The translations under genes were made by a program, and so were the position numbers. A DNA stretch of 56,676 bases, from the IMG/VR virus record IMGVR_UViG_3300032272_000004, one strand, 5' to 3'. Source of the DNA: an uncultured virus (IMG/VR IMGVR_UViG_3300032272_000004) (Duplodnaviria > Heunggongvirae > Uroviricota > Caudoviricetes). The stretch's first letter is position 1. The number at the start of each line of letters is the position of its first letter. This document shows, piece after piece, positions 16,042 through 30,806 of the stretch. The notes under the pieces are model-generated. The model was given only the letters and a program-made list of their open reading frames with translations, was not told the DNA's origin and ran no database searches.

Positions 16042-16479
16042 ATGGAGATCTCCTCGGAACTCTGGACCAACGTCTTGGGTGCCGCTGGCACCGTCTTGGC
16101 CGCTGTGCTGGTGACCCTGGCCGGCCAGGGCCGCGCCTGGCTCGCCTCGAACGTGCACGAGCCGCGTCTGCGAGCTGCAGCTCTGGATCTGACCTCGGCT
16201 GTCGAGACGGTCGTCAGCCTCGAAGGCAGCCAGTTGCGCTCGCGCATGAGGGAGGCGGGCGCCGACGGAAAGATCACCCGAGCGGAGCTGGAGACTATCG
16301 CCTCCGATACCGCGAAATCGGCCCGGCGCAAGCTGACGAAGGAGACGAAGGACTTCGTGGGCCGCCAACTCGAAGGCGACGACGGGCTCGACGAGCTGCT
16401 CGCCGACAAGATTCTCGCGGGGCTGATGCGCCGCGTCGACATCGCCGATCTGGCGTCGCCCGAGGAGCCTGCCAAATGA
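16042..16479 (+). CDS. holin-like membrane protein (single N-terminal TM)
   Basis: N-terminal TM then soluble helical domain with DGKIT..E motif, resembling LL-H-type holins. Confidence 0.5.
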   Translation: MEISSELWTNVLGAAGTVLAAVLVTLAGQGRAWLASNVHEPRLRAAALDLTSAVETVVSLEGSQLRSRMREAGADGKITRAELETIASDTAKSARRKLTKETKDFVGRQLEGDDGLDELLADKILAGLMRRVDIADLASPEEPAK

Positions 16480-16910
16480 TGCCCCCCCAAGCCGCCGCCG
16501 GCACCCCTGATGGTCTCGGCTACATCCCCCAGCAGCCCACCACGATGACCTACGCGAGCGGGGGACGGCCCTACATCCCGCAACAGGATGTGTTTTCCTA
16601 CGACCCTCTCGCCGGTCAGCTCCCCATCGAGCCGACCGACACGAGCAGTGGAGCTGCGGTGCAGTCCGCCGGCGTCGCTGCCGTGCTGGCCGCAGCCGGC
16701 ATCACCGGGGGCTTGCTCGTCGGCGGTCCCTGGGGCGCTGGTAGCGGGCTGATGTTTGCGGGGGCCGTGGCCAACGGCTACCGCGCTCAAAAATGGATGT
16801 CCGACGCTGACCCCGGCCGTCGTCACGAGGCGATCGTCAGTGCGACTTTCTCCGTCTTCCAGGTGGGCTTCGGTGCCTACCTGGCCTACCGCAGCAGCAA
16901 AGCCAAGTAA
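16476..16910 (+). CDS. multi-TM virion membrane protein
   Basis: Three hydrophobic segments; PPQAAAG and GLG motifs shared with other structural ORFs. Confidence 0.65.
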   Translation: MMPPQAAAGTPDGLGYIPQQPTTMTYASGGRPYIPQQDVFSYDPLAGQLPIEPTDTSSGAAVQSAGVAAVLAAAGITGGLLVGGPWGAGSGLMFAGAVANGYRAQKWMSDADPGRRHEAIVSATFSVFQVGFGAYLAYRSSKAK

Positions 16911-16913
16911 GTA

Positions 16914-17768
16914 ATGTCTGTACCCGAACCGGCGATCGGTATCCCGTTGATCTTCAAGCCCGCAGCGGGCTTCGAGTCGATCTTTCAGGGCAAGGCAGCG
17001 GAAGCTGTGGTGGGCTCCAGCGTAGCTGATTCGATTCCATTCTATCGGTGGGACGAGGCGGCGCCGTCGCAGACAGCTGCCGCTGCTGGCAAGCCGGGCT
17101 TCGACCCAAACCTCATCAACATGGGCGACGTGCCCTACGGTGCGCGGTTGAAGGTGCAGATCCCGGTGATTGCAAACCCCGCGCTCGGGATCCTGCAGCA
17201 GTACCGCTACACGCCGATCTGGCGTGACGTGAGTCAGGGGGCCTATCGAGAGAAGCTGTCCCCACGATACAGTTTGCCGCGCACCACGGATGGCGCTCCG
17301 GATACCGGAGCCGTGCCCCCCGAGCGCAAGGTCGTCATCAGCACAGTGCAATGCCGCCAGGTCACGGCGGCCGGACTCATTGCGGGTGAGTACGAGACAC
17401 AGATTGTGCGGGAGTGGTTTGTGCCGGTGGCAACCCCAGCAGCTCCACCCGACCTGAACGCTGCGGGTACCGCCACGGGAACCTACACGCAGGGCGTGAG
17501 CGATCCTGCGGTCGACCCGTTTGCGAAGTTTGCCCGCTTCGTCGAATTCACCATCGAGGCCCAAGGCGACCAGCTCGGCTGGCTCTGCGAGCGTGTGCCG
17601 GTGGCCGCCGGACCCGCAGCCACCTGGGACTTCGCTACCGGGGCGGCAGACGTCCAGTTCTCACAGATCTACGGCACGGCCGAGTTGGATGTGCCGCACC
17701 CCCCTTATCTCGACGCGGGAATTTACGTCTTCCCGTTGAACAGCGCCTCGGTGCGCGAAGCGACCTAG
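16914..17768 (+). CDS. putative virion structural protein
   Basis: 284 aa, beta-strand/Pro/Ala-rich, in structural operon. Confidence 0.55.
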   Translation: MSVPEPAIGIPLIFKPAAGFESIFQGKAAEAVVGSSVADSIPFYRWDEAAPSQTAAAAGKPGFDPNLINMGDVPYGARLKVQIPVIANPALGILQQYRYTPIWRDVSQGAYREKLSPRYSLPRTTDGAPDTGAVPPERKVVISTVQCRQVTAAGLIAGEYETQIVREWFVPVATPAAPPDLNAAGTATGTYTQGVSDPAVDPFAKFARFVEFTIEAQGDQLGWLCERVPVAAGPAATWDFATGAADVQFSQIYGTAELDVPHPPYLDAGIYVFPLNSASVREAT

Positions 17769-17782
17769 CAGAGGAACACACC

Positions 17783-18307
17783 ATGAGTCAGAGCGGAGGA
17801 AGTAACACCGGTTGGAAGCATCGTGGCGCTCGTAACGAGCGTTGCGACTACTTCGACGACGTCATGAGCGACAACAAGCAGCATGGCATTTTCGCTGGTG
17901 AAGGCATCGAGGATTTCGAGGGACTCAAGGTCGAGCCCCAGGCCGACGGCATCAGTTGCGGCATGCACTGTCGCGGCTGCTCAGCTCAGGCTGACGTGGT
18001 GCTCTCGTGGCCGGAGATCTGGGTGATCGGCACGTATCAGTATCACAACATGCTCCCGCAGGACTGGTCCTACTCGCAGACCAATCAGGCGGCATTCCCG
18101 GCGAATACGCGTTGCCCGAGGTGCGACTTCAATCTCGTGGTGCACATCAAGCCGATGTGGGCGAAAGCGCAGATCGACGAGGCCCTGCGCACCGGGCTCG
18201 TGTCTGGTCCTGCTCTGCAGCAGGATCCGCAGGTGCAGTCCGTGGCTCAGGCCATGGCGCAGATCAACGCTCAGCGTCGTCATGGGCAGATGACCGGACA
18301 GAGGTGA
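17783..18307 (+). CDS. zinc-finger protein
   Basis: GAGGA RBS; CRGC and CPRC pairs. Confidence 0.6.
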   Translation: MSQSGGSNTGWKHRGARNERCDYFDDVMSDNKQHGIFAGEGIEDFEGLKVEPQADGISCGMHCRGCSAQADVVLSWPEIWVIGTYQYHNMLPQDWSYSQTNQAAFPANTRCPRCDFNLVVHIKPMWAKAQIDEALRTGLVSGPALQQDPQVQSVAQAMAQINAQRRHGQMTGQR

Positions 18308-18870
18308 GTACTTCCGGCGAGCGAGCTCGCCACGTGCTCGCCCCATTCTATTCCGAGATCCGCTCGCTCTACGTGGAAGAGGGCTTCGCACGGGTGAGTA
18401 AGACGCGGCTCCTGGTGAACAAGGATCTCCCAGGGATGCTGCGTGCCGCGGGCGTGCCGGTGCCAGCGCCGGAGCGTCTGCGTGCCGTTTGTCGGAACGA
18501 TGGCACGCAGATCAGCGCCGCCCCGATCCTCGCCGACGAGCCCGTGAGTCGAGTGGTCGCCATCCTGGCGCACGAACTGGGGCACGCCGTCGACTTCTCC
18601 TACCCAGGCCGCTTTCTGTGGCTCGAGGGAGCGCTCGTGGAAACGAACGCCTGGGAGGCCGACCCCGAGGAGCGCGCAGTCTACAACACGCTGCAGCAGT
18701 GGCATCAGCGCCCCGACCACGCAGTGGAGCGCACCGCGGACGCCCTGGCCGAGCTCGTTACTGGACGGGAAGTCTGGTACACGGGCCCGCTGCAGCTCCA
18801 GGACTTGGAGGCCGTGCCGGAGGCGGGTTTTGCGCCCCAGCGGCCCCGCCCGGAGGCTCTCGACGCGTAG
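18304..18870 (+). CDS. zincin-like metallopeptidase
   Basis: ILAHELGHA (HExxH) plus downstream E..AD..A. Confidence 0.65.
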   Translation: MSTSGERARHVLAPFYSEIRSLYVEEGFARVSKTRLLVNKDLPGMLRAAGVPVPAPERLRAVCRNDGTQISAAPILADEPVSRVVAILAHELGHAVDFSYPGRFLWLEGALVETNAWEADPEERAVYNTLQQWHQRPDHAVERTADALAELVTGREVWYTGPLQLQDLEAVPEAGFAPQRPRPEALDA

Positions 18871-18919
18871 GTGGGTCACTCGGTACCCACCCTGGGGTAA
18901 AAAAACACCTGGGTCGTGC

Positions 18920-18948
18920 TTGACCCACCGAGAAAGCCAGGATAGGTT
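18920..18948 (+). promoter_or_regulatory. putative promoter of core/capsid operon
   Basis: TTGACC-17nt-TAGGTT; GAGGTG RBS before ATG 19026. Confidence 0.5.
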
Positions 18949-19025
18949 GAAATCCTCAACACGGCTGACTGTTCTCGACCGCACACAGTCGCGCTCTGTT
19001 TTTACAACAGAGGTGCGCCTTTAAG

Positions 19026-21248
19026 ATGCGTCAAGGATACGGACACAGCTACCCGGTTTCGCGAAAGATCGCTCGTTCTTACGAGTACGATCCGGAGCCA
19101 TCCCGCGGCTACCGCCCGAACCCCATCGGGGTGACGCGGCTGCAGTCTGTCAACGGGCGCGGATCTCGCGCTCGTGCTTCCGATCTGCGCCCCAGTGAGC
19201 GGCGCGGAGTGGCCCGTCGTGTCGTGCGTCGCGCAGCTCCTGCTCGGACCACGCCGAATCGTCCTCGTGCTGCAACCGCCAAGCGGTCTGCCCAGTCTCC
19301 TGCGCAGAAGCGTGCACGTCGACGCGAGCAGGCTTTTCACCGCGCAGTCTCCGGCGGCAAGAGCAAGCAGGTGGCTGCCAAAGCCGCGCTGAAGAGCGTG
19401 CCGTTTACGGCAACGGAAAAGAAGGCGGGCAAGAGCTTCCGTGGCCAGTCGGCAGGCCGCACGACGGCCAAGCGTCGAGTGACCAAGAAGACGGTCGCCC
19501 GCAAGCGCACCCCTGCGCGCAGCAAGACGGTCGTCCGTCGCAAGAAAACCCCGAAGCGTGCCGCCAGCGGACGCTTCACCAAAAACGCTCGGGGCGCTTC
19601 GCGTCGCCGTACCTCCGGCCGGGGCAAGGCCTCAACCACAAGGAAAAACACAATGGCGATGACCAAAGCTGCGCGGTCCAAGGCTGCGAAAAAGGGCTGG
19701 GCCCGGAAACGACGCGCTGGAACCGCGAAGAAGAGCACGAAGCGTCGCACCACGCGTCGGCCCGCGGCCAAACGGCGTCGCACCACCACGCGTCGTCGCA
19801 CGACCGCCAAGCGCAACTCCAAGGGGCGGTTCGTGAAGAATGGTTCCGTGGTCCGTCGTCGCAAGAAGAGCACGACTCGTCGGCGTCCCGCCGCGAAGCG
19901 TCGCACGACCAAGCGCACGACCAAGCGTCGGGCTTACCGCCCCAACGCGAAGCGTCGCACGACTCGTGCCGTGACTCGTCGCAAGCCGGCGAAGCGGCGT
20001 AGCTACCGGGCCAACCGGGGCTTCACCAGCGCGACGGCGAAGAAAGCTGCGCGGAAGCGCTGGCGCAAGGCCGGTACCCGCGGTGGACGTGGCGCTCGTG
20101 GCGTGAAGCTCACTCGCGGCACCGCCTACTACAAGGGTCGCAAGCCCGCCGCGCTCAAGAATCGATCCAAGGTCGGTCGCAAGCGCATCCGGAAGCTTCC
20201 GAAGGGCCGCGTCTACCTGACCAACCGTCGAAGCACTGCCGCCAGTCGGTCTCGTGCCGCGAAGCTCGGGTGGAGTCGGCGTCGTCGGGGCGGAACTGCT
20301 CGTCGTCGCAGCTACACCAGCAACCGGTCCGTCGTGCGTCGTCGCAAGACCACGGCACGTCGTCGTCCGGGTCGGGTGTTCCGTCGCAACGGCAAGGGCA
20401 GCGTGATGGACCTGGTGAAGACCGGCGCCGTCGGCTTCGCGGGCTTCGGCGCGCAGAAGGGCATCACCGCAGCTCTCGACTACCAGATCGCCACGTACAT
20501 GGCGAAATCCGGAGCCACCGCTGGCTTCGAGCTTTCGCACTGGCGCAAGGCTGGCATCGGCGCGCTCGTTACCGCGCTCGGCGCCTACTCCTCGCTCCGC
20601 TTCATTGGCGGCCAGGCTGGCATGGCTTCGGCTGTGGGCATGGTGCTCTCCGAGCTCCACACCATCGCAGTCACGGCTCTCACGTCGTACCCCAGCACGG
20701 CTCAGTACGCTGGCTACCTCGCCGGCGTCCCGGGTCGAGCGGCTGCCATCGGTGGTCTCGGTGCTTACGTGCGCCGCGGCGCTCCGCAGCAGAGCATTCT
20801 CCCCGAGTACGTCCCCACGGGCCGTCCGGGTGGCATGCAGCAAGCGGTCGCGATGTCCGGCGGCATGGGTGAGTACTTCCAGGCCTCGGGCGTGGGTGAG
20901 TACTTCGCCAGTGGCGTGCAGGGTGTCGGTCACTACGAGTCTGCTGGCCCCATGGCCATCCAGGCCTCGGCAGGGGTCGGCCAGAACATCGACGACGGTC
21001 TGCGTCCCGATGGCAACTTGGACCAGGCGATGCAGCTCGCGGAGGCCCAGGCGGGCGTCGGCGGAAGCATCGGCGAGTTCTTCACCGCTGGCTCCGGTGG
21101 CGGCCAGCAACGTGTACCCGCTCGCAGTGAGTGGGTCCCCAACAACCCCCTGTGGGCTGGCACCAAGCCTGCCGCTGACAGCGCTGCGACGAGCGAGCTG
21201 AAGGCCGGCATGTTCGAGACCTCCGGAGACAACGGAATCTTCGGCTGA
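19026..21248 (+). CDS. Arg/Lys-rich DNA-condensing core-like protein with membrane segment
   Basis: About 460 aa of R/K/T/A/S-rich repeats, then hydrophobic helices and Gly-rich tail; second RBS+ATG at 19653. Confidence 0.75.
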   Translation: MRQGYGHSYPVSRKIARSYEYDPEPSRGYRPNPIGVTRLQSVNGRGSRARASDLRPSERRGVARRVVRRAAPARTTPNRPRAATAKRSAQSPAQKRARRREQAFHRAVSGGKSKQVAAKAALKSVPFTATEKKAGKSFRGQSAGRTTAKRRVTKKTVARKRTPARSKTVVRRKKTPKRAASGRFTKNARGASRRRTSGRGKASTTRKNTMAMTKAARSKAAKKGWARKRRAGTAKKSTKRRTTRRPAAKRRRTTTRRRTTAKRNSKGRFVKNGSVVRRRKKSTTRRRPAAKRRTTKRTTKRRAYRPNAKRRTTRAVTRRKPAKRRSYRANRGFTSATAKKAARKRWRKAGTRGGRGARGVKLTRGTAYYKGRKPAALKNRSKVGRKRIRKLPKGRVYLTNRRSTAASRSRAAKLGWSRRRRGGTARRRSYTSNRSVVRRRKTTARRRPGRVFRRNGKGSVMDLVKTGAVGFAGFGAQKGITAALDYQIATYMAKSGATAGFELSHWRKAGIGALVTALGAYSSLRFIGGQAGMASAVGMVLSELHTIAVTALTSYPSTAQYAGYLAGVPGRAAAIGGLGAYVRRGAPQQSILPEYVPTGRPGGMQQAVAMSGGMGEYFQASGVGEYFASGVQGVGHYESAGPMAIQASAGVGQNIDDGLRPDGNLDQAMQLAEAQAGVGGSIGEFFTAGSGGGQQRVPARSEWVPNNPLWAGTKPAADSAATSELKAGMFETSGDNGIFG

Positions 21249-21355
21249 CACCCACCGCTCGGCGGCGCTAGTCGCCGAGCACCAAACTCCTCGATGGGAC
21301 GCCTACCCCATCTCAAAAAACGGCTTTCTACCCAAACCCAGAGGCGAGTATTACC

Positions 21356-22111
21356 ATGGCAAAATTGACGAATGTGCGTGAGCGCGTCCACCAGCCCTTC
21401 TACGACAGTCTCGTGCGGACTGCCGGCTACGGCGGGGTCAACCTGAACGACCAGACCGACCTGTTCACGCAGGCTGGCAAGTCGCAGGGCGAGACCAACC
21501 TGAAGCAGGGCTCGGTCCTGCCTTCCGACCAGTCCCACGTGACCTTGGCGCTTCGCGCCTTCCTGTGGGCTCGTCCCCCGGTCGTGCGTAGTGCGGCCCC
21601 GGTGTCTGGCCAACAGCTGGCCCGGAACGGCGACGTGGACCCGCTGCTCTTGAACGCGTTCTTCACCACGGGTGTGGGAACCGGCCAGGCGCTCGCGGAC
21701 TACCACGACGTGCACCGCTTCTACCACCAGGGTCTGGAGCAGTTGCACTTCACGTATGGCACAGGTGAGAAGCCCAGTATCACCAATATGCCTGCAAAAT
21801 ATTTTCCAGATGGAGGGGGTCTCCATGGGGATTTGGGCGGCGTGTCGGACATCGTGCACTGGAACAACGGCGACCCCAGCCAGGCTTCCATCACTCGGTT
21901 GGCTCGCGCCATCCTCCTGCCCCCGCGCCAGAACGTGCTCTGCCAGGCGAACATCTTCGCTCTGCCGGAGAACGGTCAGTCGGCGAACATCGGCTCGGTG
22001 CAGGGCAACCGGAACATGAACAGTTTCCGGGACAACGTGAACGCCATCGACGGAATGCCCAAGGTGGTGCAGTTCTGTTTCGACGGTCTGTTCGCACGCG
22101 ACGTACAATGA
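21356..22111 (+). CDS. putative major capsid protein (single jelly-roll type)
   Basis: 251 aa directly after core protein, followed by terminators; QPFYD...LF...TNL..G.LP pattern and alternating beta-strand composition (fold inferred). Confidence 0.55.
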   Translation: MAKLTNVRERVHQPFYDSLVRTAGYGGVNLNDQTDLFTQAGKSQGETNLKQGSVLPSDQSHVTLALRAFLWARPPVVRSAAPVSGQQLARNGDVDPLLLNAFFTTGVGTGQALADYHDVHRFYHQGLEQLHFTYGTGEKPSITNMPAKYFPDGGGLHGDLGGVSDIVHWNNGDPSQASITRLARAILLPPRQNVLCQANIFALPENGQSANIGSVQGNRNMNSFRDNVNAIDGMPKVVQFCFDGLFARDVQ

Positions 22112-22118
22112 GGAAACA

Positions 22119-22145
22119 CTTCCCGATGCCTCGTGCATCGGGAAG
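22119..22145 (+). terminator. stem-loop after putative capsid gene
   Basis: Perfect 11-bp stem CTTCCCGATGC/GCATCGGGAAG. Confidence 0.5.
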
Positions 22146-22197
22146 CCTCGTGTGCCGCGTGACCGAGTTCACGTAGTATTCGCCAACGGCCCGGACG

Positions 22198-22237: not shown

Positions 22238-22321
22238 GAACCTTGCCACAGCGCCCCTCCCGCTGTGCGAGTATCGTCAGGAGGTGTACCCTCTACCCGA
22301 GTTTCGGAGACCCCCCCAAAA

Positions 22322-23290
22322 ATGCATCCCTTCCAAGAAGAACTTCAGCGCCTGAGCCAGGCGATGAACCAGATCCAGCGCGGCCACAACTTCCTCGGCT
22401 CGGCACTGCGCCGCCAGGAGGACCGGGACGGCGCGCTGATGCAGCAGCTCAAAGACCTGTCGACGGTCCTCGAGCACACGACCCAGAACAACAAGGGCAC
22501 CTCGGTCTACGGTGAGGGAATCGAGCGCATCGAGTCCATTCCGGGTCGCCGCGTGCCTTTCGATATGGTGCTCGAGATCCCCATCGGGGACGACATCGAC
22601 ACCAAGCTCCAGGACAGCGTCCCGATCAGCAACACCGGCCCCTTCGTGGCCGTGGCTCGCATGGCGACGTTTCTGTCCGAGTACCAGTTCTCGGTGGTCG
22701 ACCAGGAGACCCTCGCGGTCTCGAGCTTCAACGGTCGCTCCTTCGGTCGCTATCGGCCGATCCACTCCGCGTGGGACATCAACGACGGCGCCCTCGACCC
22801 CCAGGGAGCCCTGGGAGCCCTCGCAGCTCCGGGCACCGGCGCTCCGTTCTGGACGAGCCCCACGACGCACTCGCCCTTCCGGACGATGCAGACCGATCTG
22901 CGGATCAAGCAGAGCGAGGGAGGCAGCTCCTACCCTCGGAGCAACCGTCCGGTCCCGTCGCCGTTCTGGACGACCCAGATCAACAGCCCCTTCCCTCTCG
23001 GCGCGCTCGACTTCTACGCTCGCAACGAGGTCGTGGATTTCGAGGTGACGCCGAGTCACACCAACAACCCGGAGGCCGGCAACCTGCAGGCCTTCGCGAC
23101 CCCGCCCTACCCGTTTCTGGGGCAGCAGTTCGACCACCACGAGGGCATCGCTGATCCGCAGCTCGGCTCGGTGGGTGCCGACGATCCGGATCCCGTGACC
23201 CGGCTCCCTCGAGGCACGCTGTTCGTGGTCCTCCACGGCTACCGCATCATTCAGCCGCCTGGTGTCCTGGGCACTGGACACGGTAGCTGA
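22322..23290 (+). CDS. putative capsid/vertex protein (N-terminal coiled coil + beta-rich domain)
   Basis: Heptad N-terminus; beta-strand patterns (VPFDMVLEIPI, PFVAVA, LFVVLHGYRI). Confidence 0.55.
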   Translation: MHPFQEELQRLSQAMNQIQRGHNFLGSALRRQEDRDGALMQQLKDLSTVLEHTTQNNKGTSVYGEGIERIESIPGRRVPFDMVLEIPIGDDIDTKLQDSVPISNTGPFVAVARMATFLSEYQFSVVDQETLAVSSFNGRSFGRYRPIHSAWDINDGALDPQGALGALAAPGTGAPFWTSPTTHSPFRTMQTDLRIKQSEGGSSYPRSNRPVPSPFWTTQINSPFPLGALDFYARNEVVDFEVTPSHTNNPEAGNLQAFATPPYPFLGQQFDHHEGIADPQLGSVGADDPDPVTRLPRGTLFVVLHGYRIIQPPGVLGTGHGS

Positions 23291-24111: not shown

Positions 24112-24244
24112 TGATGATCTCATGTGCAGTAGGCGGTTCCTCGGCGGGCGTTGGGACGTCGAGCGGCATGGACAGTCGTTCGAGCTCCCGGTGTTCGGGG
24201 TCGTGCGAGGGACCGCCTACTGCGCATGAGAGGATTGGTGCATC

Positions 24245-25177
24245 ATGAAGAAGCGTCGAATCAACCGTCACATCGGACCCTTCGAGTTCGATCGCAGCGG
24301 TACCGGGGCCATCCCGACGATTCCTGGGGTGCCGACCTCCGTCAATGATCTGCTGGGCCAGCTCAGCAATCTGACTCTCGGCAACTTCAATCCGTTGCAG
24401 CCGGCGCCTGGCATCGTGCCTGGGCTTCCGGCTCAGCCCGCGCTCCCCGAGGGCGCTGGATCGCTGGGTGATCTGATCGGGGCGCTCCCGATTGGCACCG
24501 TGCTGACCCCCTGGGCAGTGCAGAAGAGCGATGTCAAGTGGGATTCGATTGGCGAGTCTCCGGTCAACTACGCCGTCCAGGATATCGGCATCGCGCTGAC
24601 GGTGTTGCAGGGCGCCACTGTGGGGATGCCCCTCACCATCGCCTTCATGTCGAAGGACCCGCGCCCGCTCTCTCTGGTGCAGGCGGCCTTCGCGGGAACG
24701 GCCTACGCCTACTCGAGCACCCAGGCCTGCTACGCGCAGACCGATCCGAATACGCCTCCATCCATCATCTTCCTGCACTGGGGCACGCTGCGTAACACCC
24801 AGAGTGGATCGCAGAGTCTCGAGCTTTCGGCTGCGAGCATCGGCGCCAAGGCGGTCTTCGCCTACCCGATCGATTCGCGGACCAGCACGTCGCGTGGAGC
24901 CCCTGGTGGCTTCGGGGGCGCCTATCAGTCCCAGTACGGTATCACCGTCAGCGTGACGCCGGCCCCGAACGAGGTGCCTCCGCCCAGTCTTCCGCCGCTG
25001 CCGCCCCCGGTCGACCCGCAAGTGCCGATTCCTCCGGGCGGAGCTACGGACCCGCTGCCTCCCGGCACCACTCAGCCCGGAACGGCGAGGGCCGGGATGT
25101 CTTGGGGCCTGATCGGCGCGGTAGGAGGGTTGAGTGCCCTCATTGGTTACGGCATCGTGTGGGCATGGAGACGATGA
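24245..25177 (+). CDS. virion membrane protein, C-terminal TM anchor
   Basis: GAGGA RBS; Pro-rich linker then TM and WRR. Confidence 0.7.
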   Translation: MKKRRINRHIGPFEFDRSGTGAIPTIPGVPTSVNDLLGQLSNLTLGNFNPLQPAPGIVPGLPAQPALPEGAGSLGDLIGALPIGTVLTPWAVQKSDVKWDSIGESPVNYAVQDIGIALTVLQGATVGMPLTIAFMSKDPRPLSLVQAAFAGTAYAYSSTQACYAQTDPNTPPSIIFLHWGTLRNTQSGSQSLELSAASIGAKAVFAYPIDSRTSTSRGAPGGFGGAYQSQYGITVSVTPAPNEVPPPSLPPLPPPVDPQVPIPPGGATDPLPPGTTQPGTARAGMSWGLIGAVGGLSALIGYGIVWAWRR

Positions 25178-25653
25178 ACATGCAAGATTTTCCAAACCTC
25201 GACCTCTCGATGATGGAGGGCGCCGCCGAGGATCCCTCGCTGCAGCTCCTGCAGGGGGGCATGGCCGCACAGCAGCCGATGTCACAAATGGATCCCAGCC
25301 ATTTGGAACAGATGCAGCAGCAGCCCATGCCTCCGCCGGTGCAGCAGCAGCAGCCTATGCCGCCCCTGCAGCCGCAGATGCAGCCGCAGCCGATGCCGCA
25401 GCAGCCCATGCAGCCGCAACCGATGCCGCAGCCCATGCCGGGCGGTCGTATCGAGCGCGCAGAAGACCTTCTGGGCCCAAACCTCGTGGCTCCTCAGATG
25501 CAGCTCCCGAACGGGCAGCTGGCGCCGCTGCCTGGGGCTCCCCAGGCTCCGCCCAAGAAAATCGCCTGGTACTGGTGGGCACTCGGTGCTGTCGGAGTCG
25601 CGGCTGCCGCTGGCGGCGGCTACTACTACTACACCCGGAAGGATGACGACTGA
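25174..25653 (+). CDS. Gln/Pro/Met-rich protein with C-terminal TM anchor
   Basis: QPM repeats; WYWWALGAVGVAAAAGGGYYYY-RK. Confidence 0.7.
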   Translation: MNMQDFPNLDLSMMEGAAEDPSLQLLQGGMAAQQPMSQMDPSHLEQMQQQPMPPPVQQQQPMPPLQPQMQPQPMPQQPMQPQPMPQPMPGGRIERAEDLLGPNLVAPQMQLPNGQLAPLPGAPQAPPKKIAWYWWALGAVGVAAAAGGGYYYYTRKDDD

Positions 25654-26264
25654 TGCTCGGTCAAGCGATGTTCAACGAATCGGTGATCCCGCAGCAGCAG
25701 AACCCTGCGGACCATCGATTTCAGACCCCCAATCAGCACTTCTACGGAGAGTTTCCGGATCGTGTGGACGAGTCGACACCCCAGCGTCTGGCGATGGTGA
25801 CGCCCAAGATGTACTCGTCGCCCTCGACTGCCGACATGACCCGTGCGGATACTCCATCGGCGATCACCCCACAAGACGGCTGTCTGAATGCCCAGGATTT
25901 CGGCGGCGTGGCGGCGTGCGTCGGCTTCCCGGGGATCCCCGGGTGTGAGTCGCTTCTGCCGCGAGCCAATCAGCCTCTCTGCAATCCCCAGGACTACACG
26001 CCCCAGGACTGCGCGTCACTCCTCGCCGCCGTTCCACTGGCCACGGGCCAGGAGATGATCCGCTACTGCGACGAGTACGGAACTGCGGGTCCAGACGGGA
26101 CCAAAAACACCTTCTGCTACACCCTGTTCAAGCTGCCGGACTACGAAGCTCAGGCTCGTGCCTGCTACGGCGTCGAGAAGGGGATGAGCACTCGAACCAT
26201 GGCTCTGGGAGGCCTCTTGCTGCTGCTCTTGGGTGGCGGCGCCTACTACTACTACAAGCGCTAA
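25653..26264 (+). CDS. Cys-rich protein with C-terminal TM anchor
   Basis: Eight Cys; LGGLLLLLLGGGAYYYYKR. Confidence 0.7.
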   Translation: MLGQAMFNESVIPQQQNPADHRFQTPNQHFYGEFPDRVDESTPQRLAMVTPKMYSSPSTADMTRADTPSAITPQDGCLNAQDFGGVAACVGFPGIPGCESLLPRANQPLCNPQDYTPQDCASLLAAVPLATGQEMIRYCDEYGTAGPDGTKNTFCYTLFKLPDYEAQARACYGVEKGMSTRTMALGGLLLLLLGGGAYYYYKR

Positions 26265-26268
26265 CGGA

Positions 26269-26508
26269 ATGGACCTGGATCAACTCGCAGCCCTCGGCGA
26301 TGCAGCGATGCAAGTCGGCCCGATCATGAATCGGGTAGGCGAGACTCCATGGTCTCTCGCCGGTCGCGTGCTGGGCCTGGGCAAGGCCGAGCAGGCGGCG
26401 GGCATTCCGAAATGGGGCTGGTTTACTGCGGGACTGCTATTTGGCGGTACCGCTATTTACTTCGCGGCACCTCATCTGCCGCGTCGATCCGGGAGCAACG
26501 ACAAATGA
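26269..26508 (+). CDS. small membrane protein
   Basis: C-terminal TM WGWFTAGLLFGGTAIYF. Confidence 0.6.
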   Translation: MDLDQLAALGDAAMQVGPIMNRVGETPWSLAGRVLGLGKAEQAAGIPKWGWFTAGLLFGGTAIYFAAPHLPRRSGSNDK

Positions 26509-27323
26509 GCTACTACATGGCAAAGGGCAGTCCCGTAACCGCCGCCGCCGCAGGCGTCGGAGCACTCCCGCCGCAGGCCGCGGCCGGGCTCGGGTCCAAT
26601 CGGCTGCACGCATGGCGTGACGGCGTTTTCACGCGCGGGATGTCCGGGCTTCCGCCGCAAGCGGCAGCGGGCCTCGGGTCCAACCGGCTGCGGGCCTACG
26701 CGGACGGCGTGTTCTCGGCGTCTTGCGCGAGCTGCGGGCCCGAGACCAATCCCTACCCGCTCCGCGCTTACACCGACGGGTACCTCGGAGGCTTGGGGGC
26801 CGACGAGCGCTCGACATTCACGGATCCGCTGCTGGCCGAGGGCATCCTCGACCTGAGCAATCCGGCAGTGATGTACCAGTTCAAGCGGGTACTCTCGTAC
26901 ATCAAGTTCCGTCAGGGGGCTATGGAGCCCACGGGGGGGCTCTCCGCGGCCTCCCTCGACAATCCTGACTGGGACAACGAGGCAGCCAGCCTCTACAAGG
27001 ATTGGGTGAGGAGCATCGGTGGACCCCCCAGCGCCGAGGGGATGATGATCACCTCCAACGGCCTGCCGACGGTGCAGGGCGCGGTGCTGCTGGTCATCAC
27101 CAACGAGGCGGAGATGATCGAGGCCATGGGAGCGCAGCCTGCGGCGAACTTCGCCGGCCTGCACTGGCCCTCGGTCGCGATCTGGGCCGGCAACGCTCGC
27201 CAGGACGAATCGAAGGCCTCGATCAAGTTCTCGTCCAGCATGAAGGCCGGCATGAGCCCCACCCTGTGGTACGTCGGGGGTGGCGTACTCGCCGCCGGCG
27301 TCCTGTGGGCCGTCTTTCGCTAG
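26505..27323 (+). CDS. virion membrane protein with repeated QAAAGLG motif
   Basis: Duplicated LPPQAAAGLGSNRL.A..DGVF; C-terminal TM. Confidence 0.7.
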   Translation: MSYYMAKGSPVTAAAAGVGALPPQAAAGLGSNRLHAWRDGVFTRGMSGLPPQAAAGLGSNRLRAYADGVFSASCASCGPETNPYPLRAYTDGYLGGLGADERSTFTDPLLAEGILDLSNPAVMYQFKRVLSYIKFRQGAMEPTGGLSAASLDNPDWDNEAASLYKDWVRSIGGPPSAEGMMITSNGLPTVQGAVLLVITNEAEMIEAMGAQPAANFAGLHWPSVAIWAGNARQDESKASIKFSSSMKAGMSPTLWYVGGGVLAAGVLWAVFR

Positions 27324-27387
27324 GCTTCTGGGTTGACGGCACGGTTTCTAGGTGTCGTCAACCGCCTACTCGTGCGATCATGAAGCC

Positions 27388-28128
27388 ATGCTCGACACAC
27401 ACAAGCTTGCGCAGGCTGCGGCCGAATTCTTCGGCAACGGCGTGGCCGTTGCCCAGGACGCGATCGACCAGATGCAGTCCTGGGGCATTGCGCTCGCGCG
27501 CAACGCCCCCCTGAAATTCGGTCCGGTCGCTCTCTTGAGCGAGGAGTGCTCGCTCTGCGAGCGCTTGGCCACGGCACACTGCCAGGCCTGCGGCGACATC
27601 GTCTGTCTCCACCACGCGCGCACCTCGTCAGCTGGCGACGTAATCTGTGCTGATTGCGTGGAAATCGCCATCGAGGAGCTGTCTCCGGTGGGACGCCCGA
27701 TCACCCTGCTCGATCTGAAGAATGGCATCGAGGAGGAGGTCGAGGTCGAGCCCGAGCGCTACCGCAAGCAGCAGCAGCGCAAAGGCAAGCGCAAAGGCAG
27801 GGGCAAGGGCAAAGGCAAGGGCAAGGGGTCCAAGCCTCAGCCTCAGCACCGTACCCGAGCTCGGAAGCCGCAGCCGCAGCCTCCGAAGGCGCAGAAGCCC
27901 GAGCCCGAGCCCGAGCGTGACATGGCCGAGCCTGATCTCGAGGAGACGGTTGCCTGCCGTGTCCTCGGTGTCGAGCCCGGCTGCAGCTGGGATGAGATCA
28001 ACACTGCGTTTCGGCGACTGAGCATCAAGCACCATCCGGACCGCAAGGGCGGCGACGCTGAGCGCTTCCAGGAACTGAGCGTTGCCTACGCGTCGCTGAA
28101 ATCTCACTACGGAAGGGTCGCTGCCTGA
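27388..28128 (+). CDS. zinc-finger + C-terminal DnaJ-domain protein
   Basis: CSLC..HCQAC...CLHH...CADC; VLGV...EINTAFRRLSIKHHPDRKGG...FQELSVAY. Confidence 0.85.
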   Translation: MLDTHKLAQAAAEFFGNGVAVAQDAIDQMQSWGIALARNAPLKFGPVALLSEECSLCERLATAHCQACGDIVCLHHARTSSAGDVICADCVEIAIEELSPVGRPITLLDLKNGIEEEVEVEPERYRKQQQRKGKRKGRGKGKGKGKGSKPQPQHRTRARKPQPQPPKAQKPEPEPERDMAEPDLEETVACRVLGVEPGCSWDEINTAFRRLSIKHHPDRKGGDAERFQELSVAYASLKSHYGRVAA

Positions 28129-28445
28129 TGTATCCCGCAGGTCTCGGAGCCGGTCCCGGCCCCGTCGAAACGTATCTCGTCGACATGCCGTTCCCCTGGG
28201 GCGACAACACGGCGGTGACGTTGCCGGTGCAGGAAATCGCCGACGATTTTACGTCGGCGATCCTGCCCGAGGCCTCCGCACGCGCAAACCAGCTCATCGA
28301 GCGCCAGTGGCGGCAGATGATCCGTCCCGACATTCAGGACGAACTCGATCGGATCGACGTCATCAAAAAGGAGTTGATCACGGCTTTTGCCGTGGGCATC
28401 GGCGTGCTCGGCGTCGGCGCCTACTTTATCTGGAGGAAACGATGA
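28128..28445 (+). CDS. small protein with C-terminal TM anchor
   Basis: MYPAGLG start; TM then WRKR. Confidence 0.65.
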   Translation: MYPAGLGAGPGPVETYLVDMPFPWGDNTAVTLPVQEIADDFTSAILPEASARANQLIERQWRQMIRPDIQDELDRIDVIKKELITAFAVGIGVLGVGAYFIWRKR

Positions 28446-28906
28446 AAGGCCTCGGTGATGTTCCGCTCGGATTTGTGGAGATCGACCCGCTGACGGTGTG
28501 GTCGGTGCAAGGGCGTCCTCACCTCGAGGTCAAAGGCCCCCCTCCAGTCTTCATTCGAGCCAAGTTTGTGAACATTCGGGGGCAGGCTCCCGAGCCCGCG
28601 TTTCCTCGCTGGCTGATGTACTGCGGACCGACGACCAAGGCTCAGGTGCCGTTTCTCGTGCAGCAAATGCAGCGCTGGATCCAGGCGCAGCGTCCCGACG
28701 GCTTCTGGACCGTGTATTACGAGCTCGCCTACCTCGCTCCCAACGGTTTCCAGGGGTACAATTGGCCTTGGCGTGAGACCCGCATGGTGTGGCGCCACGA
28801 GCCGGCGCCGCCGCAGCCCTGGGTCTACTCGGGCGACCCCTTCGACCCGCGCGCGCAGCGCTGGAAGCAACTTCCACCCCACCAAACCCGCTGGAGCTAC
28901 GGATGA
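28442..28906 (+). CDS. hypothetical structural-module protein
   Basis: GGAGG RBS; MKGLGD start. Confidence 0.6.
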   Translation: MKGLGDVPLGFVEIDPLTVWSVQGRPHLEVKGPPPVFIRAKFVNIRGQAPEPAFPRWLMYCGPTTKAQVPFLVQQMQRWIQAQRPDGFWTVYYELAYLAPNGFQGYNWPWRETRMVWRHEPAPPQPWVYSGDPFDPRAQRWKQLPPHQTRWSYG

Positions 28907-29184
28907 GCTACTACGCCTCGAATCACAAGCTGACCCGGCCCGGGATGCCGTTCGAGATCTTCTCGCCGATCCCCGGGTGGCAAATGAACCCCTACGCCGC
29001 CGGCAACGCGCGGGTCGGCATCGGAGCTACGGGCTACGAGGAAACCGGGTGGGGCATGGTCGCCCTGGTTGGCGCCGGTACCCTCTTGACTGGTCTCTTC
29101 GTGGGTCACGCGGTCGGCAAGCGCTCGACTGCGAAGAAGTTCCGGTCCAATCGCCGGCGCCAGCTCCGGCGCCTGGGGTCGTAG
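28903..29184 (+). CDS. small membrane protein with basic tail
   Basis: MSYY start as in 26505; GIG motif, TM, FRSNRRR tail. Confidence 0.6.
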   Translation: MSYYASNHKLTRPGMPFEIFSPIPGWQMNPYAAGNARVGIGATGYEETGWGMVALVGAGTLLTGLFVGHAVGKRSTAKKFRSNRRRQLRRLGS

Positions 29185-29435
29185 TGCAGGCGCTCGCGGG
29201 TGCGTGCCCGCCGTGCTCCTTCTACTCCCCCGCCGAGCAGCGGTGCGTCTGGTGTCCGACGGATCCGGCCATCGCCGATCCCATCCCGGAATGCTTCGGT
29301 TGCAATGGCCGCACCCCCCTGTCAGCTCCCTGGTATCGCGATCCGGACGTGATGGTGCCGGTGCTCACCGGGATCGGGGGTAGCATCGTCGGTGCACTCG
29401 CCATTGCTTGGCTCTCGAAGAGGCTCAGCATCTGA
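29184..29435 (+). CDS. small Cys-rich protein with C-terminal TM
   Basis: CPPC, CVWC, CFGC; TM then KR. Confidence 0.55.
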   Translation: MQALAGACPPCSFYSPAEQRCVWCPTDPAIADPIPECFGCNGRTPLSAPWYRDPDVMVPVLTGIGGSIVGALAIAWLSKRLSI

Positions 29436-29436
29436 G

Positions 29437-29886
29437 ATGCCTGATCTGTGGGAGCAGCTCGCCGTAGGCGGTCCCATCAGCGTCTTGGTCGCCGCAGCGC
29501 TCTGGTACATCAACCGCGAGCGTGTCAGCTACGTCAAGAAGCTCGAAGCCGCCACAGCGGCTCGCCTGGAAGACGCTGCCCTGTATGCCACCCGCCTGGT
29601 GGATTTCACGGAGGCGAGTGCCAAGTACCGCAAGAAGTACGAGGAGTCGCGCGAGCGCGACCGGCAGGTGACTCGGCGCTTGGTGCGGACGCTCGAACGG
29701 ATCCGCGTGGTCGACGCTCGCAGCTTGAGGCCCGCCAGTCCCGACTCGAGTGATGATTGGGAGTTCGACCGGCCCTCGCGCGAGCCCGAGCGCCCAAACC
29801 CCCCCCCTCTACCTACTTCCAAGGGTGCCTACAGCCTGACCCACGAGCAGCTCATGCGGTCGCTGAAAGACGGGGGAAAGAAATGA
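29437..29886 (+). CDS. N-terminal TM + coiled-coil protein (possible holin)
   Basis: LAVGGPISVLVAAALWYI then heptads. Confidence 0.55.
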   Translation: MPDLWEQLAVGGPISVLVAAALWYINRERVSYVKKLEAATAARLEDAALYATRLVDFTEASAKYRKKYEESRERDRQVTRRLVRTLERIRVVDARSLRPASPDSSDDWEFDRPSREPERPNPPPLPTSKGAYSLTHEQLMRSLKDGGKK

Positions 29887-30140
29887 ACTGGTTGACATCC
29901 TGGCTGCGTCCAGCATCGGCAACGGTCGATGCGTGCCCGCCGAGCCCGGCCGCGGATCGATTCCGCGTTGCGCTCGCGCGGATTGATGACGAAACACGCA
30001 GCCTGTGCACCGACGAGCCGAAACCACTCGACGAAATCGAGGATGATCTGCGATCATTGCTGAGGAAATTCGATGCACGACCCAGCACCACCGGAGGAAA
30101 CCCTCCTGGGCCAGAGCCAGAGCCAGAGCATCCAGATTGA
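29883..30140 (+). CDS. hypothetical protein
   Basis: ATGA-coupled start. Confidence 0.45.
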   Translation: MNWLTSWLRPASATVDACPPSPAADRFRVALARIDDETRSLCTDEPKPLDEIEDDLRSLLRKFDARPSTTGGNPPGPEPEPEHPD

Positions 30141-30597
30141 GGAGCAGACCCGCGAAGCGATCCGGCAGCTCACGTACTCGAACCTCGACCTGGCCCTCCA
30201 TCAAAAGAAGACCCGGGACCGGTTGGCGTGGGTCGCAGCGATCGTGATCGGGGTGTTTATCGTCGGGGTGGCGGCCCACGCCCACCTGGTGCTGCAGACG
30301 CTCGACTTTCGGAGGGACATCGACCGCTCGGTTTCTGCGGCTCGTATCGACGTGCGCGACCTCGACCGCGACGTGCGGGAGGCCCGCGCCCGGGACCTGG
30401 CGATCAGTCGAGCTATCACAGCTCAGGTCCGAGCCTGCAGCTCCCCCAAGACTGCTGAGGGGCGCCTGGCTCGTCGCGCTGGGGTAGAGGCCCAGATCGC
30501 CGTGATCGACGACCTGCCTTCCACGGCCGCGCTGGAGCGCGAGCGCCAGCTGCTCGTGCTCGAGCTGGGCCTGACATCGGAAGAGTCCCCGCGATGA
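30073..30597 (+). CDS. TM + coiled-coil protein (possible lysis/spanin-like)
   Basis: GAGG RBS; single TM then long amphipathic helix. Confidence 0.55.
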   Translation: MHDPAPPEETLLGQSQSQSIQIEEQTREAIRQLTYSNLDLALHQKKTRDRLAWVAAIVIGVFIVGVAAHAHLVLQTLDFRRDIDRSVSAARIDVRDLDRDVREARARDLAISRAITAQVRACSSPKTAEGRLARRAGVEAQIAVIDDLPSTAALERERQLLVLELGLTSEESPR

Positions 30598-30806
30598 CCC
30601 CACTCCTCGAACTCCCCATCGTCTTCGACTTCTACCTGCTCGGTTGGATCTTCGCGGTCATGCTGGCGTGGCATGCTCGAGACCCCGACGTCCCCCAGCC
30701 GATGTGGCGTCCGCTGCTGATCGGGACCATCTGGCCGCTCGTGCTGCTCGTGTTCCTCATTATCTGCATCGAAGATGCGTGGCCGGACGATTTTCCGAGA
30801 AACTGA
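30594..30806 (+). CDS. small two-TM protein
   Basis: Two hydrophobic segments, ATGA coupling. Confidence 0.6.
   Translation: MTPLLELPIVFDFYLLGWIFAVMLAWHARDPDVPQPMWRPLLIGTIWPLVLLVFLIICIEDAWPDDFPRN

What the first reader, a model, noticed from the sequence alone, without database searches (positions are those of the whole stretch)
16042..30806. Structural module of a probable tailless, membrane-containing virus lacking recognisable packaging and replication genes
Seen: a basic core-like protein, three beta-rich 250-320-aa proteins and more than ten small proteins with TM anchors ending in aromatic/basic residues. I see no terminase, portal, HK97 capsid, tail, FtsK/A32-type ATPase, polymerase, primase or helicase in 56.7 kb. 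Established: internal-membrane jelly-roll viruses (tectiviruses, sphaerolipoviruses) encode many small membrane proteins and normally a packaging ATPase. Inference: an unclassified lineage with a large genome, possibly assembling by core-protein condensation.
Basis: inference. Interest (0 to 1): 0.7.

Follow-up and report, generated by a model that had tools for sequence, protein, structure and literature searches.

The report
Jelly-roll virion genes, large tailless virus
This stretch is most likely the particle-building gene block of an uncultured bacterial virus of about 120 kb that seems to build its shell from jelly-roll proteins around a protamine-like DNA-binding protein and a membrane, with no detectable tailed-phage head, portal, tail or DNA-packaging motor genes.

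Summary
Window 16042-30806 encodes a 740-aa protein that is 36% Lys+Arg over its first 470 residues. It also encodes two very conserved proteins (21356-22111, 22322-23290) predicted with moderate confidence to be beta-sandwiches. Their weak structural matches are mostly viral jelly-roll capsid proteins, and SPV1 is the top match for both. Membrane anchors are strongly enriched: 10-13 of 22 proteins in the block against 1 of 58 outside it.

The window is only 48% of a 118,676-base contig, so missing genes in 56.7 kb prove little by themselves. I therefore examined relatives, which are IMG/VR genomes of 110-180 kb, eight with terminal repeats. Terminase, portal and HK97-capsid models hit 0 of 21-22 records. 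Scans of nearly all proteins of two relatives found no packaging ATPase. The only P-loop protein among the families shared by three or more genomes is DnaB.

Replication genes (DnaB, primase, RecT, an initiator, a sliding clamp) do occur in relatives. Their absence from the window is therefore probably truncation.

The membrane, the tailless capsid and motor-less assembly are inferences. Five literature searches found no description of the lineage. This scan has noted the same lineage before on other DNA.

The parts
16042..16479 (+). 145-aa protein with an N-terminal membrane anchor (residues 10-28)
   Evidence: No family hit. No homologue in the four relatives compared.
16476..16910 (+). 144-aa membrane protein, first gene of a conserved four-gene cluster (16476-18870)
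   Evidence: TM segment at residues 65-83. Homologues in 3 of 4 relatives after HMM iteration.
16914..17768 (+).
   Evidence: Homologues in 4 of 4 relatives at 24-34% identity. No Pfam, PHROG or PDB-sequence match. Structure not predicted.
17783..18307 (+). 174-aa Cys-rich (zinc-ribbon-like) conserved protein
   Evidence: CxxC pairs are visible in the translation. Homologues in the relatives.
18334..18870 (+). 178-aa putative zinc metalloprotease
   Evidence: Invariant H80-E81-x-G83-H84...D87 in 6 of 6 aligned members. Weak Pfam matches: Peptidase_M48 in 4 of 6 members (best E 5.7e-4) and SprT-like in 2 of 6. No PDB sequence match.
19026..21248 (+). 740-aa protamine-like basic protein with a Gly/Ala-rich C-terminal domain carrying three GxGE[YF]F motifs
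   Evidence: composition, pI about 12; family of 593-875 aa, motifs in 16 of 22 members. It lies directly upstream of the 21356 homologue in 20 of 20 records where all four genes were called.
21356..22111 (+). Candidate major capsid protein 1: 251-aa single jelly-roll-like beta sandwich, the most conserved gene of the lineage
22322..23290 (+). Candidate major capsid protein 2: 322 aa, N-terminal 55-residue helix plus jelly-roll-like sandwich
23290..24111 (+). 273-aa conserved protein whose start overlaps the stop of the previous gene; fold unknown (possible penton or minor capsid protein)
   Evidence: Found in 22 of 26 records at 27-37% identity. No PDB sequence match. ESM Atlas uninformative. 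No profile similarity to the two jelly-roll families.
24118..24231 (.). Large hairpin (26-nt arms, 92% complementary) closing the three-gene capsid-candidate unit
   Evidence: inverted repeat I4.
24245..25177 (+). 310-aa protein with a Pro-rich stalk and a C-terminal membrane anchor (...VWAWRR)
   Evidence: Family found in 18 of 26 records.
25174..26508 (+). Three tail-anchored proteins: a 159-aa P/Q-rich one, a 203-aa Cys-rich one and a 79-aa conserved one
   Evidence: C-terminal anchors read. The 79-aa family is in 22 of 26 records.
26505..27323 (+). 272-aa protein with a C-terminal anchor (...LWAVFR)
27388..28128 (+). 246-aa protein: Cys-rich N-terminus, Lys/Gly/Pro-rich linker and C-terminal J domain; probably recruits host Hsp70
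   Evidence: Pfam DnaJ E 3.4e-11. Present in 4 of 4 relatives and in 21 of 26 records.
28128..30806 (+). Seven small proteins, six with membrane segments (C-terminal, N-terminal or internal)
   Evidence: No family hits. Two have a homologue in one relative.
30883..31464 (+).
   Evidence: Homologues in 4 of 4 relatives.
7005..9989 (+). 994-aa acidic core protein: conserved small domain, long Arg/Glu-rich (probably coiled-coil) region, Pro/Gln-rich linker and C-terminal domain; possible scaffold or size-determining protein
   Evidence: Present in 4 of 4 relatives. Alignment. No Pfam, PHROG or PDB hit. In G019 it adjoins the morphogenesis block. The proposed function is inference.

Best explanation
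Window 16042-30806, with 30883-31464 and probably 7005-9989, is part of the virion-morphogenesis module of an uncultured double-stranded-DNA virus of bacteria. The lineage has complete genomes of about 110-180 kb.

Proposed parts (functions inferred from fold, composition and synteny):
- Shell: two unrelated single jelly-roll-like proteins (21356-22111 and 22322-23290).
- A third co-translated protein (23290-24111), possibly at the vertices.
- DNA neutralisation and condensation: the 740-aa protamine-like protein encoded directly upstream. Its non-basic, Gly/Ala-rich C-terminal domain with GxGE[YF]F motifs probably ties the condensed DNA to the membrane or shell.
- Internal or enclosing lipid layer: a dozen tail-anchored small proteins.
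- Assembly or maturation: a J-domain protein that recruits host Hsp70 and a small HExxH metalloprotease.

What is shown:
- conservation and gene order;
- composition of the basic protein;
- predicted beta-sandwich folds;
- enrichment of membrane anchors;
- absence of detectable tailed-phage hallmark genes and of any conserved P-loop packaging ATPase in relatives.

What is inferred: that these proteins are in the particle, that the particle is icosahedral, tailless and membrane-containing, and how the DNA gets inside.
For: Viral lineage and genome size:
- The two candidate capsid genes have 587 and 705 metagenomic homologues. They form 127 clusters at 50% identity.
- 23 IMG/VR loci lie on contigs of 38-182 kb, and eight records have terminal repeats. 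The repeats are 123-141 nt in the three records fetched.

Folds:
- AlphaFold2 gives beta sandwiches.
- The weak Foldseek lists are dominated by jelly-roll capsids.

Synteny:
- The order basic protein, jelly-roll 1, jelly-roll 2, third protein is colinear in 20 of 20 records where all four were called. 26 records were examined.
- A homing HNH endonuclease sits between the two jelly-roll genes in G001.

Membrane anchors: 10-13 of 22 block proteins against 1 of 58 outside.

Absence of the alternative machinery:
- Terminase_6N hits 0 of 22 records plus 0 of 1. TerL_ATPase, Phage_portal and Phage_capsid each hit 0 of 21.
- The two FtsK matches among 21 records are P-loops of DnaB.
- Proteome scans covered 155 of 187 called proteins of G001 (Pfam and PHROGs) and 153 of 162 of G019 (Pfam, plus PHROGs on 20). 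They found no head, portal, terminase, tail-tube, double jelly-roll or A32-type gene.
- Among about 30 families shared by three or more genomes, only the DnaB-like helicase has a Walker A motif in its members; one basic-protein orthologue matches the pattern by chance.

Bacterial host: relatives carry peptidoglycan hydrolases (amidase_2 with PG_binding, SLT, M23).
Against: - No particle, proteome or lipid data exist.
- The model of 22322-23290 has 89 residues below pLDDT 50.
- The rest of the window's own contig (62 kb) was not seen. A 48-base exact search did not find it in the metagenome collection.
- The window lacks homologues of several families that are core in relatives: c105, c106, c115 and the transglutaminase-like c117.
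- ESM Atlas taxon labels for the family's clusters read 'Uroviricota'.
- Genome size and the replication and recombination genes resemble tailed phages.
Confidence: 0.6

Rival explanations
1. It is a tailed phage (Caudoviricetes) whose HK97 capsid, portal and terminase have diverged beyond sequence detection. On this reading the two jelly-roll proteins are capsid decoration or cement proteins or fibre heads, and the small membrane proteins serve lysis or superinfection exclusion.
For: - Genome size of 110-180 kb with terminal repeats.
- Phage-type RecT/YqaJ, DnaB, primase and methylases.
- Collagen-like proteins that hit 'tail fiber' PHROGs in G001.
- 'Uroviricota' labels on the family's Atlas clusters.
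- Jelly-roll cement proteins of KHP40 and Pam1 appear among the structural matches.
Against: - The large terminase is the best conserved phage gene, yet two terminase models hit 0 of 21-22 records.
- The portal and HK97 capsid models hit 0 of 21.
- Proteome scans of G001 and G019 found none of these genes.
- No conserved unannotated protein carries a Walker A motif.
- The 'tail fiber' hits are collagen repeats only.
- A decoration protein would not normally be the most conserved gene of a lineage.
Confidence: 0.12
2. It is a virus, but not an icosahedral jelly-roll-shelled one. The particle would be pleomorphic or enveloped, with a nucleoprotein core made by the basic protein. The jelly-roll proteins would then be matrix, spike or envelope-associated proteins.
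For: - A very large protamine-like protein, many membrane proteins and several glycosyltransferases are conserved.
- No packaging motor is found.
- The jelly-roll matches are generic.
Against: - Two adjacent, highly conserved jelly-roll genes of constant length fit the pattern of two-capsid-protein tailless viruses such as P23-77, HHIV-2 and SPV1 (passages of PMC6356626 and of PMC8459092).
- Known enveloped or pleomorphic prokaryotic viruses have far smaller genomes (recalled, not tested here).
Confidence: 0.15
3. It is not a virion module at all. It would be a cell-surface or secretion gene island of a large plasmid-like element.
For: - No hallmark virus gene is recognised by sequence in the block.
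- Many membrane and glycosyl-transfer proteins are present.
Against: - No relaxase, type IV secretion or partition-plus-conjugation set was found in G001 or G019.
- The relatives carry lysis enzymes, homing endonucleases, RecET, Lar and DUF5131, and are classed as viral in IMG/VR.
- The best structural matches are capsid proteins.
- A transglutaminase-like core protein of relatives matches a structural protein of phage SSIP-1 at E 1.2e-17.
Confidence: 0.05

Closest known systems
Portogloboviridae (Sulfolobus polyhedral virus 1; capsid proteins VP4 and VP10, core protein VP1; PDB 6OJ0)
   Same: [quoted passage not shown]
- That SPV1 has no identified packaging ATPase is my recollection. The profile text does not mention one.
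   Different: - SPV1 infects hyperthermophilic archaea and has a genome of about 20 kb. Here the host has peptidoglycan and genomes are 110-180 kb.
- There is no sequence similarity.
- The basic protein here is 593-875 aa and protamine-like. It was not compared with VP1.
Two-capsid-protein tailless membrane viruses (Thermus phage P23-77 VP16/VP17; HHIV-2, HCIV-1, SH1; kingdom Helvetiavirae)
   Same: - Two different single jelly-roll proteins are encoded side by side among small membrane proteins.
- A review describes P23-77, IN93 and SSIP-1 as encoding two capsid protein types (passages of PMC6356626).
   Different: - Those viruses have genomes of about 16-31 kb and an A32-type packaging ATPase (recalled). 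The abstract of PMC8328091 in the listing says most Varidnaviria share such ATPases.
- None is found here.
- There is no sequence similarity.
- Whether the jelly rolls here stand vertically in a capsomer is untested.
[quoted passage not shown]
   Same: - As far as I recall it is the largest cultured phage of this build. The record length of 43,788 bases is.
- It is described as having two capsid protein types.
- Its structural protein gp34 matches the lineage's transglutaminase-like core family c117 at E 1.2e-17.
- The best BFVD match of the 251-aa protein is an unnamed 211-aa viral protein (I1ZBH9, E 3.4e-3). That is the length of SSIP-1 gp46, but I could not establish the identity.
   Different: - The c117 family is not found in this window.
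- The families of 21356, 22322, 23290 and 16914 give no profile hit to any of the 35 SSIP-1 proteins I translated from its 57 annotated genes.
- SSIP-1 has two Walker-A proteins (gp40 and gp41) in its structural block. This lineage has none there.
- The genomes here are 2.5-4 times larger.
Tectiviridae / PRD1-type viruses (double jelly-roll P3, penton P31, ATPase P9)
   Same: - Many small membrane proteins are interleaved with capsid genes.
- The nearest named ESM Atlas clusters are PRD1 P2/P3 families at 0.76-0.77, which is a lead only.
   Different: - No double jelly-roll protein, no P9-type ATPase and no protein-primed polymerase were detected.
- The genomes are about eight times larger.

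Membership tests
Caudoviricetes (tailed phages) | Large terminase subunit | tested here: not met
   Window: 0 of 78 proteins. Relatives: Terminase_6N 0 of 22 and 0 of 1, TerL_ATPase 0 of 21. Proteome scans of G001 and G019 found none. The unseen 62 kb of the own contig was not tested.
Caudoviricetes (tailed phages) | HK97-fold major capsid protein and portal protein | tested here: not met
   Phage_capsid 0 of 21 and Phage_portal 0 of 21. Pfam and PHROGs scans found none. This was tested by sequence only. The folds of most unannotated proteins were not predicted.
Caudoviricetes (tailed phages) | Tail tube, sheath, tape-measure and baseplate genes | tested here: not met
   Only collagen-repeat 'tail fiber' hits and one low-complexity tape-measure hit (E 2e-6) in G001. 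Nothing in the window.
Bamfordvirae (PRD1-adenovirus type) | [quoted passage not shown] | tested here: inconclusive
   No Pfam or PHROG capsid family was hit. The two modelled proteins each have one sandwich. The other proteins were not modelled.
Varidnaviria in general | FtsK/HerA-type (A32/P9/B204) packaging ATPase | tested here: not met
   The FtsK_SpoIIIE matches in 2 of 21 records are below the cut-off and lie in DnaB helicases. Among the families shared by three or more genomes, only DnaB has a Walker A motif in its members. P-loop proteins found only in single relatives are AAA_24, a DnaC/IstB-like protein, ComM/Mg-chelatase-like and MoxR.
Helvetiavirae-type viruses (Sphaerolipoviridae, Matsushitaviridae) | Two adjacent single jelly-roll capsid protein genes | tested here: inconclusive
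   [not shown]
Portogloboviridae | Single jelly-roll hexamer and penton proteins around a membrane and a nucleoprotein core | tested here: inconclusive
   [not shown]
SSIP-1-like phages | Sequence homology of structural proteins | tested here: inconclusive
   One family (c117, found in relatives only) matches SSIP-1 gp34 at E 1.2e-17. The capsid-candidate families do not match. c117 is not in the window.

The most novel reading that the evidence does not exclude
This is a high-rank, undescribed lineage of large (110-180 kb) bacterial viruses, possibly infecting Planctomycetota. It would encapsidate DNA without any packaging motor. The genome would first be condensed by a 600-875-aa protamine-like protein. 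The C-terminal GxGE[YF]F domain of that protein would then nucleate a membrane and a shell of single jelly-roll proteins around the core. That is how SPV1 is thought to assemble, but at 6-9 times its genome size and in bacteria.
Probability: 0.25. Interest if true: 0.9.

Novelty: new variant of a known kind. Interest (0 to 1): 0.72.

Why it matters
Cultured tailless, membrane-containing phages stop at about 44 kb (SSIP-1). Nearly all of them are thought to use an A32-type ATPase to fill a preformed shell. A widespread lineage (127 clusters at 50% identity) with genomes of 110-180 kb, jelly-roll shell candidates, a giant protamine-like protein and no detectable motor would matter in three ways:
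- It would extend this architecture into the size range of jumbo-class phages.
- It would give a bacterial system in which assembly around a condensed nucleoprotein can be tested.
- It would show that gene-marker-based virus classifiers mislabel a whole lineage.

It would also add viruses for poorly sampled hosts such as sediment and soil bacteria, possibly Planctomycetota.

Tried and rejected
- Own genome and flanks. No whole genome is held. A 48-base exact search with the window's left end found nothing in metagenome contigs, so the other 62 kb of the contig stayed unseen.
- Deposited phages. Megablast of 16000-31500 and tblastn of the 322-aa protein found no match.
- Profiles against Protein Data Bank sequences. 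The families of 21356, 22322, 23290, 7005, 16914, c104 and 18334 gave nothing credible at E <= 1.
- Paralogy among the candidate capsid proteins. hhalign probabilities were 0.1-0.4%. In a local all-against-all comparison of 19 families, only the paralogous c109/c111 pair and short 20-30-residue stretches at the C-terminal anchors scored.
- Complex prediction of the 251-aa protein with residues 60-322 of the 322-aa protein gave no verdict (score 0.00, controls not run). This is not evidence either way.
- ESM Atlas for 23290-24111 was uninformative.
- Foldseek against PDB and BFVD gave no hit at E <= 1e-3.
- Host.
  - MAG labels of the five genome-contig hits disagree: Pseudomonadota, Pirellulales twice, Pseudomonadales, Methanomicrobiales.
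  - The tRNA-like 27-mer was not found, allowing up to 2 mismatches, in 301 genomes of the phylum of one Pirellulales-labelled MAG.
  - Among the 120 listed hits of the APS kinase, 14 carry an organism name and 10 of those are Planctomycetota, at 57-62% identity. This is only a lead.
- Sequencing runs. One DNA run, coded X1 and labelled sediment metagenome, holds the stretch and may be the source. No RNA holder is listed.
- Consensus promoter and terminator scans of the block were at chance level.
- SSIP-1. The distant homologues of the 251-aa protein that are about 200 aa long gave no match to SSIP-1 gp45 or gp46.
- Literature. Five searches (listings and abstracts only) showed no paper describing this lineage. 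The Aalto et al. 2012 SSIP-1 paper is not held.

Full report
**What is in the window.**
- The window is 64% G+C and nearly all its genes are on the + strand.
- A codon-bias gene call gives 78-80 genes.
- Outside the finding, Pfam and PHROGs recognise phage-type accessory genes:
  - a Lar-like protein, DUF5131, N6/N4 and FkbM methyltransferases, and a cupin;
  - a GT4 glycosyltransferase and an AAA_21/AAA_15 ATPase;
  - a 1119-aa tyrosine recombinase, an RNase T-type exonuclease and an HD phosphohydrolase;
  - DUF488, APS kinase and a sulfotransferase-like protein.
- There is also a tRNA-Met gene.
- Inside 16042-30806 the only family match among 20 proteins is a C-terminal J domain in 27388-28128. 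A rescan at E <= 0.1 added nothing above the cut-offs.

**The observation.**
- The basic protein (19026-21248) has 170 Lys+Arg and 8 Asp+Glu in residues 1-470, and a Gly/Ala-rich non-basic C-terminal 270 residues.
- Membrane segments are concentrated in the block: 10 of 22 proteins by a hydropathy threshold, 13 of 22 with three Gly/Ala-rich C-terminal anchors seen by eye, against 1 of 58 elsewhere.
- One important limit applies. The homology searches list the window's own proteins on a contig of 118,676 bases. The window is thus 48% of its contig, and 'not in 56.7 kb' says little. No whole genome is held, and I could not retrieve the flanks.

**Relatives.**
- The 322-aa protein has 705 homologues and the 251-aa protein 587. 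Listed hits are 44-57% and 54-78% identical, and the latter are mostly close to 250-260 aa.
- An exhaustive profile search finds 127 clusters at 50% identity. These include a more distant subgroup of about 190-215 aa.
- IMG/VR holds 23 loci on contigs of 38-182 kb.
- Eight records have terminal repeats and nine are rated at least 90% complete. In the three I fetched the repeats are 123-141 nt, a length typical of assembler overlap of a circular or permuted genome (that reading is inference).
- Five MAG contigs also carry the gene, under inconsistent taxonomic labels.

**Core genes.**
- I compared the window with four relatives fetched whole: G001 131 kb, G011 136 kb, G018 111 kb and G019 112 kb. 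About 30 families are shared by three or more genomes.
- From the window, the families present in all four relatives are:
  - the 994-aa protein, the FkbM methyltransferase and 16914-17768;
  - the HExxH protein;
  - the basic protein, the two jelly-roll candidates and the third protein (23290-24111);
  - the J-domain protein and 30883-31464;
  - two glycosyltransferase-type proteins.
- The tyrosine recombinase also groups with all four. It is 1249-1414 aa in three of them and 343 aa in G001.
- The order basic protein, 251-aa homologue, 322-aa homologue, third protein is colinear in 20 of 20 records where my caller found all four. In the other six of the 26 records examined, my gene calls lacked one or more of these genes. 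Some of those loci are truncated.
- The basic protein family is 593-875 aa. It always has a strongly basic N-terminal part, and 16 of 22 members carry one to four GxGE[YF]F motifs in the C-terminal part.
- Several families that are core in relatives are not found in the six-frame translation of the window: c105, c106, c115 and the transglutaminase-like c117.

**Folds.**
- AlphaFold2 with family alignments gives a beta sandwich for the 251-aa protein (pLDDT 76, pTM 0.74).
- For the 322-aa protein it gives a long N-terminal helix plus a sandwich (pLDDT 66, pTM 0.58, with 89 residues below 50).
- Foldseek finds nothing at E <= 1e-3. Its weak lists are mostly jelly-roll capsid proteins: picornavirus VP1, SPV1, circovirus, iridovirus, PBCV-1, IBDV VP2, tymovirus and the mavirus penton.
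- I therefore take 'jelly-roll-like sandwich' as moderately supported, and 'capsid protein' as an inference from fold, conservation and gene context together.
- The three adjacent proteins show no profile similarity to one another.

**Is the tailed-phage or packaging machinery really missing?**
- Across 21-22 relatives, Terminase_6N, TerL_ATPase, Phage_portal and Phage_capsid gave no match. The control genomes did give matches.
- The two sub-threshold FtsK matches are the P-loops of DnaB-like helicases.
- G001 was scanned with Pfam and PHROGs on 155 of its 187 called proteins. The 32 not scanned were the shortest, all of 82 aa or fewer.
- G019 was scanned with Pfam on 153 of 162 called proteins and with PHROGs on 20.
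- These scans found replication and recombination genes, peptidoglycan hydrolases, glycosyltransferases and collagen-like fibres. They found no head, portal, terminase, tail-tube, double jelly-roll or A32-type ATPase gene and no DNA polymerase.
- Among the families shared by three or more genomes, the only one whose members carry a Walker A motif is the DnaB-like helicase.
- 'No replication genes' does not survive. DnaB, the primase zinc finger, RecT/YqaJ, an initiator and a sliding clamp lie in parts of the relatives that do not correspond to this window.

**Other parts of the block.**
- 18334-18870 has an invariant HExGH...D signature and weak metallopeptidase matches.
- 27388-28128 joins a Cys-rich region to a J domain.
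- 7005-9989 is a conserved protein with a long Arg/Glu-rich region that looks like coiled coil, and no enzyme signature. It lies next to the morphogenesis genes in G019.
- Its role as a scaffold or size-determining protein, and the roles of the protease and the J protein in assembly, are inference.

**Comparison with known viruses.**
- SPV1 (Portogloboviridae) combines single jelly-roll shell proteins, an inner membrane and a nucleoprotein core. However, it is a 20-kb archaeal virus (passages of PMC8459092).
- P23-77, the haloarchaeal sphaerolipoviruses and SSIP-1 have two capsid protein types (passages of PMC6356626).
- SSIP-1 (43,788 bases) gives the only sequence link I found. Its structural protein gp34 matches the transglutaminase-like core family of the relatives at E 1.2e-17. 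That family is absent from this window, and the capsid candidates do not match SSIP-1 proteins.
- The lineage thus works like the tailless membrane viruses with single jelly-roll proteins. It fails their packaging-ATPase criterion, exceeds their genome sizes several-fold, and shows no sequence relationship to their capsid proteins. I do not file it in any of these families.

**Host and habitat.**
- The peptidoglycan hydrolases in relatives point to bacteria.
- Among the 120 listed hits of the window's APS kinase, 14 carry an organism name. Ten of those are Planctomycetota, eight of them Phycisphaerae-type, at 57-62% identity.
- Two of the five MAG labels are Pirellulales.
- This is only a lead. 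The tRNA-like repeat was not found in 301 genomes of that phylum.

**Novelty.**
- Five literature searches returned no description of such a lineage (listings and abstracts only).
- Earlier notes of this same scan describe what appears to be the same lineage on other DNA, as 120-kb, 144-kb and 178-kb genomes.
- They agree with my reading and gave me the SSIP-1 lead. They are not independent evidence.

Noticed in passing
window 50404-50468, 51050-51118, 51399-51467, 52424-52492, 53371-53440, 55498-55566, 55909-55977 (+): Seven copies of a roughly 65-nt tRNA-like mini-element. Each has an acceptor-like stem, a small hairpin and a T-arm-like hairpin (7 bp, loop CTCGATG), then ACC, a second hairpin and a ribosome-binding site. 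They sit between small acidic ORFs at the right end of the window. RNAalifold finds compensatory changes at 5 of 18 pairs. ARAGORN and Rfam do not call them. They could be RNase P/Z processing punctuation or tRNA mimics.
   Followed up: partly
window 31448-31987 (non-coding) and 7295-7608: An iteron-like array of GGGAGTGGAGG: 11 matches at up to 1 mismatch against 2.05 expected, all on the + strand. Seven lie in the 540-base gap just after the structural block and four in the 5' part of the 994-aa gene. It is a candidate origin, partition site or condensation/packaging site.
   Followed up: partly
window 1348-1395, 10897-10944, 32056-32103, 33008-33055: Four copies of a 48-nt motif (CTTGAC...GGTGTCG...GGCACC). 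At least three end at an annotated start codon (1393, 10942 and 33054). It may be a virus-specific promoter plus leader.
   Followed up: no
window 40951-44310 (-): A 1119-aa tyrosine recombinase. An Xer-like catalytic region lies at about residues 278-514, followed by about 600 residues with no match. Versions of 1249-1414 aa occur in three of four relatives, and G001 has an ordinary 343-aa integrase. Its role is unknown; integration, dimer resolution and telomere resolution are possibilities.
   Followed up: partly
window 48158-49554 and 14163-14540: Sulfur-related auxiliary genes: APS kinase (Pfam E 4.8e-64), an overlapping antisense sulfotransferase-like gene and a cupin matching a PHROG annotated as cysteine dioxygenase. 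A tRNA-Met gene lies next to them.
   Followed up: partly
L004:11668-12690 (G001) and L036 (3.5-kb gap): In G001 an HNH homing endonuclease is inserted between the two jelly-roll capsid-candidate genes. Another relative (L036) has a 3.5-kb insertion at the same place.
   Followed up: no
L002:574-4678 and L008:7313-11130 (G001 ends): Both ends of the 131-kb record G001 carry diverged copies of the same gene run: the HExxH protein, the Cys-rich protein, a GT2 glycosyltransferase and a GHKL-type ATPase. This is either a duplication or an assembly of two strain variants.
   Followed up: no
proteins P0389-P0444: A subgroup of about 190-215-aa distant homologues of the 251-aa protein keeps the N-terminal E+xHQPxxDxLxR and C-terminal DGLxxRDV signatures. 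The family therefore reaches beyond this lineage.
   Followed up: partly
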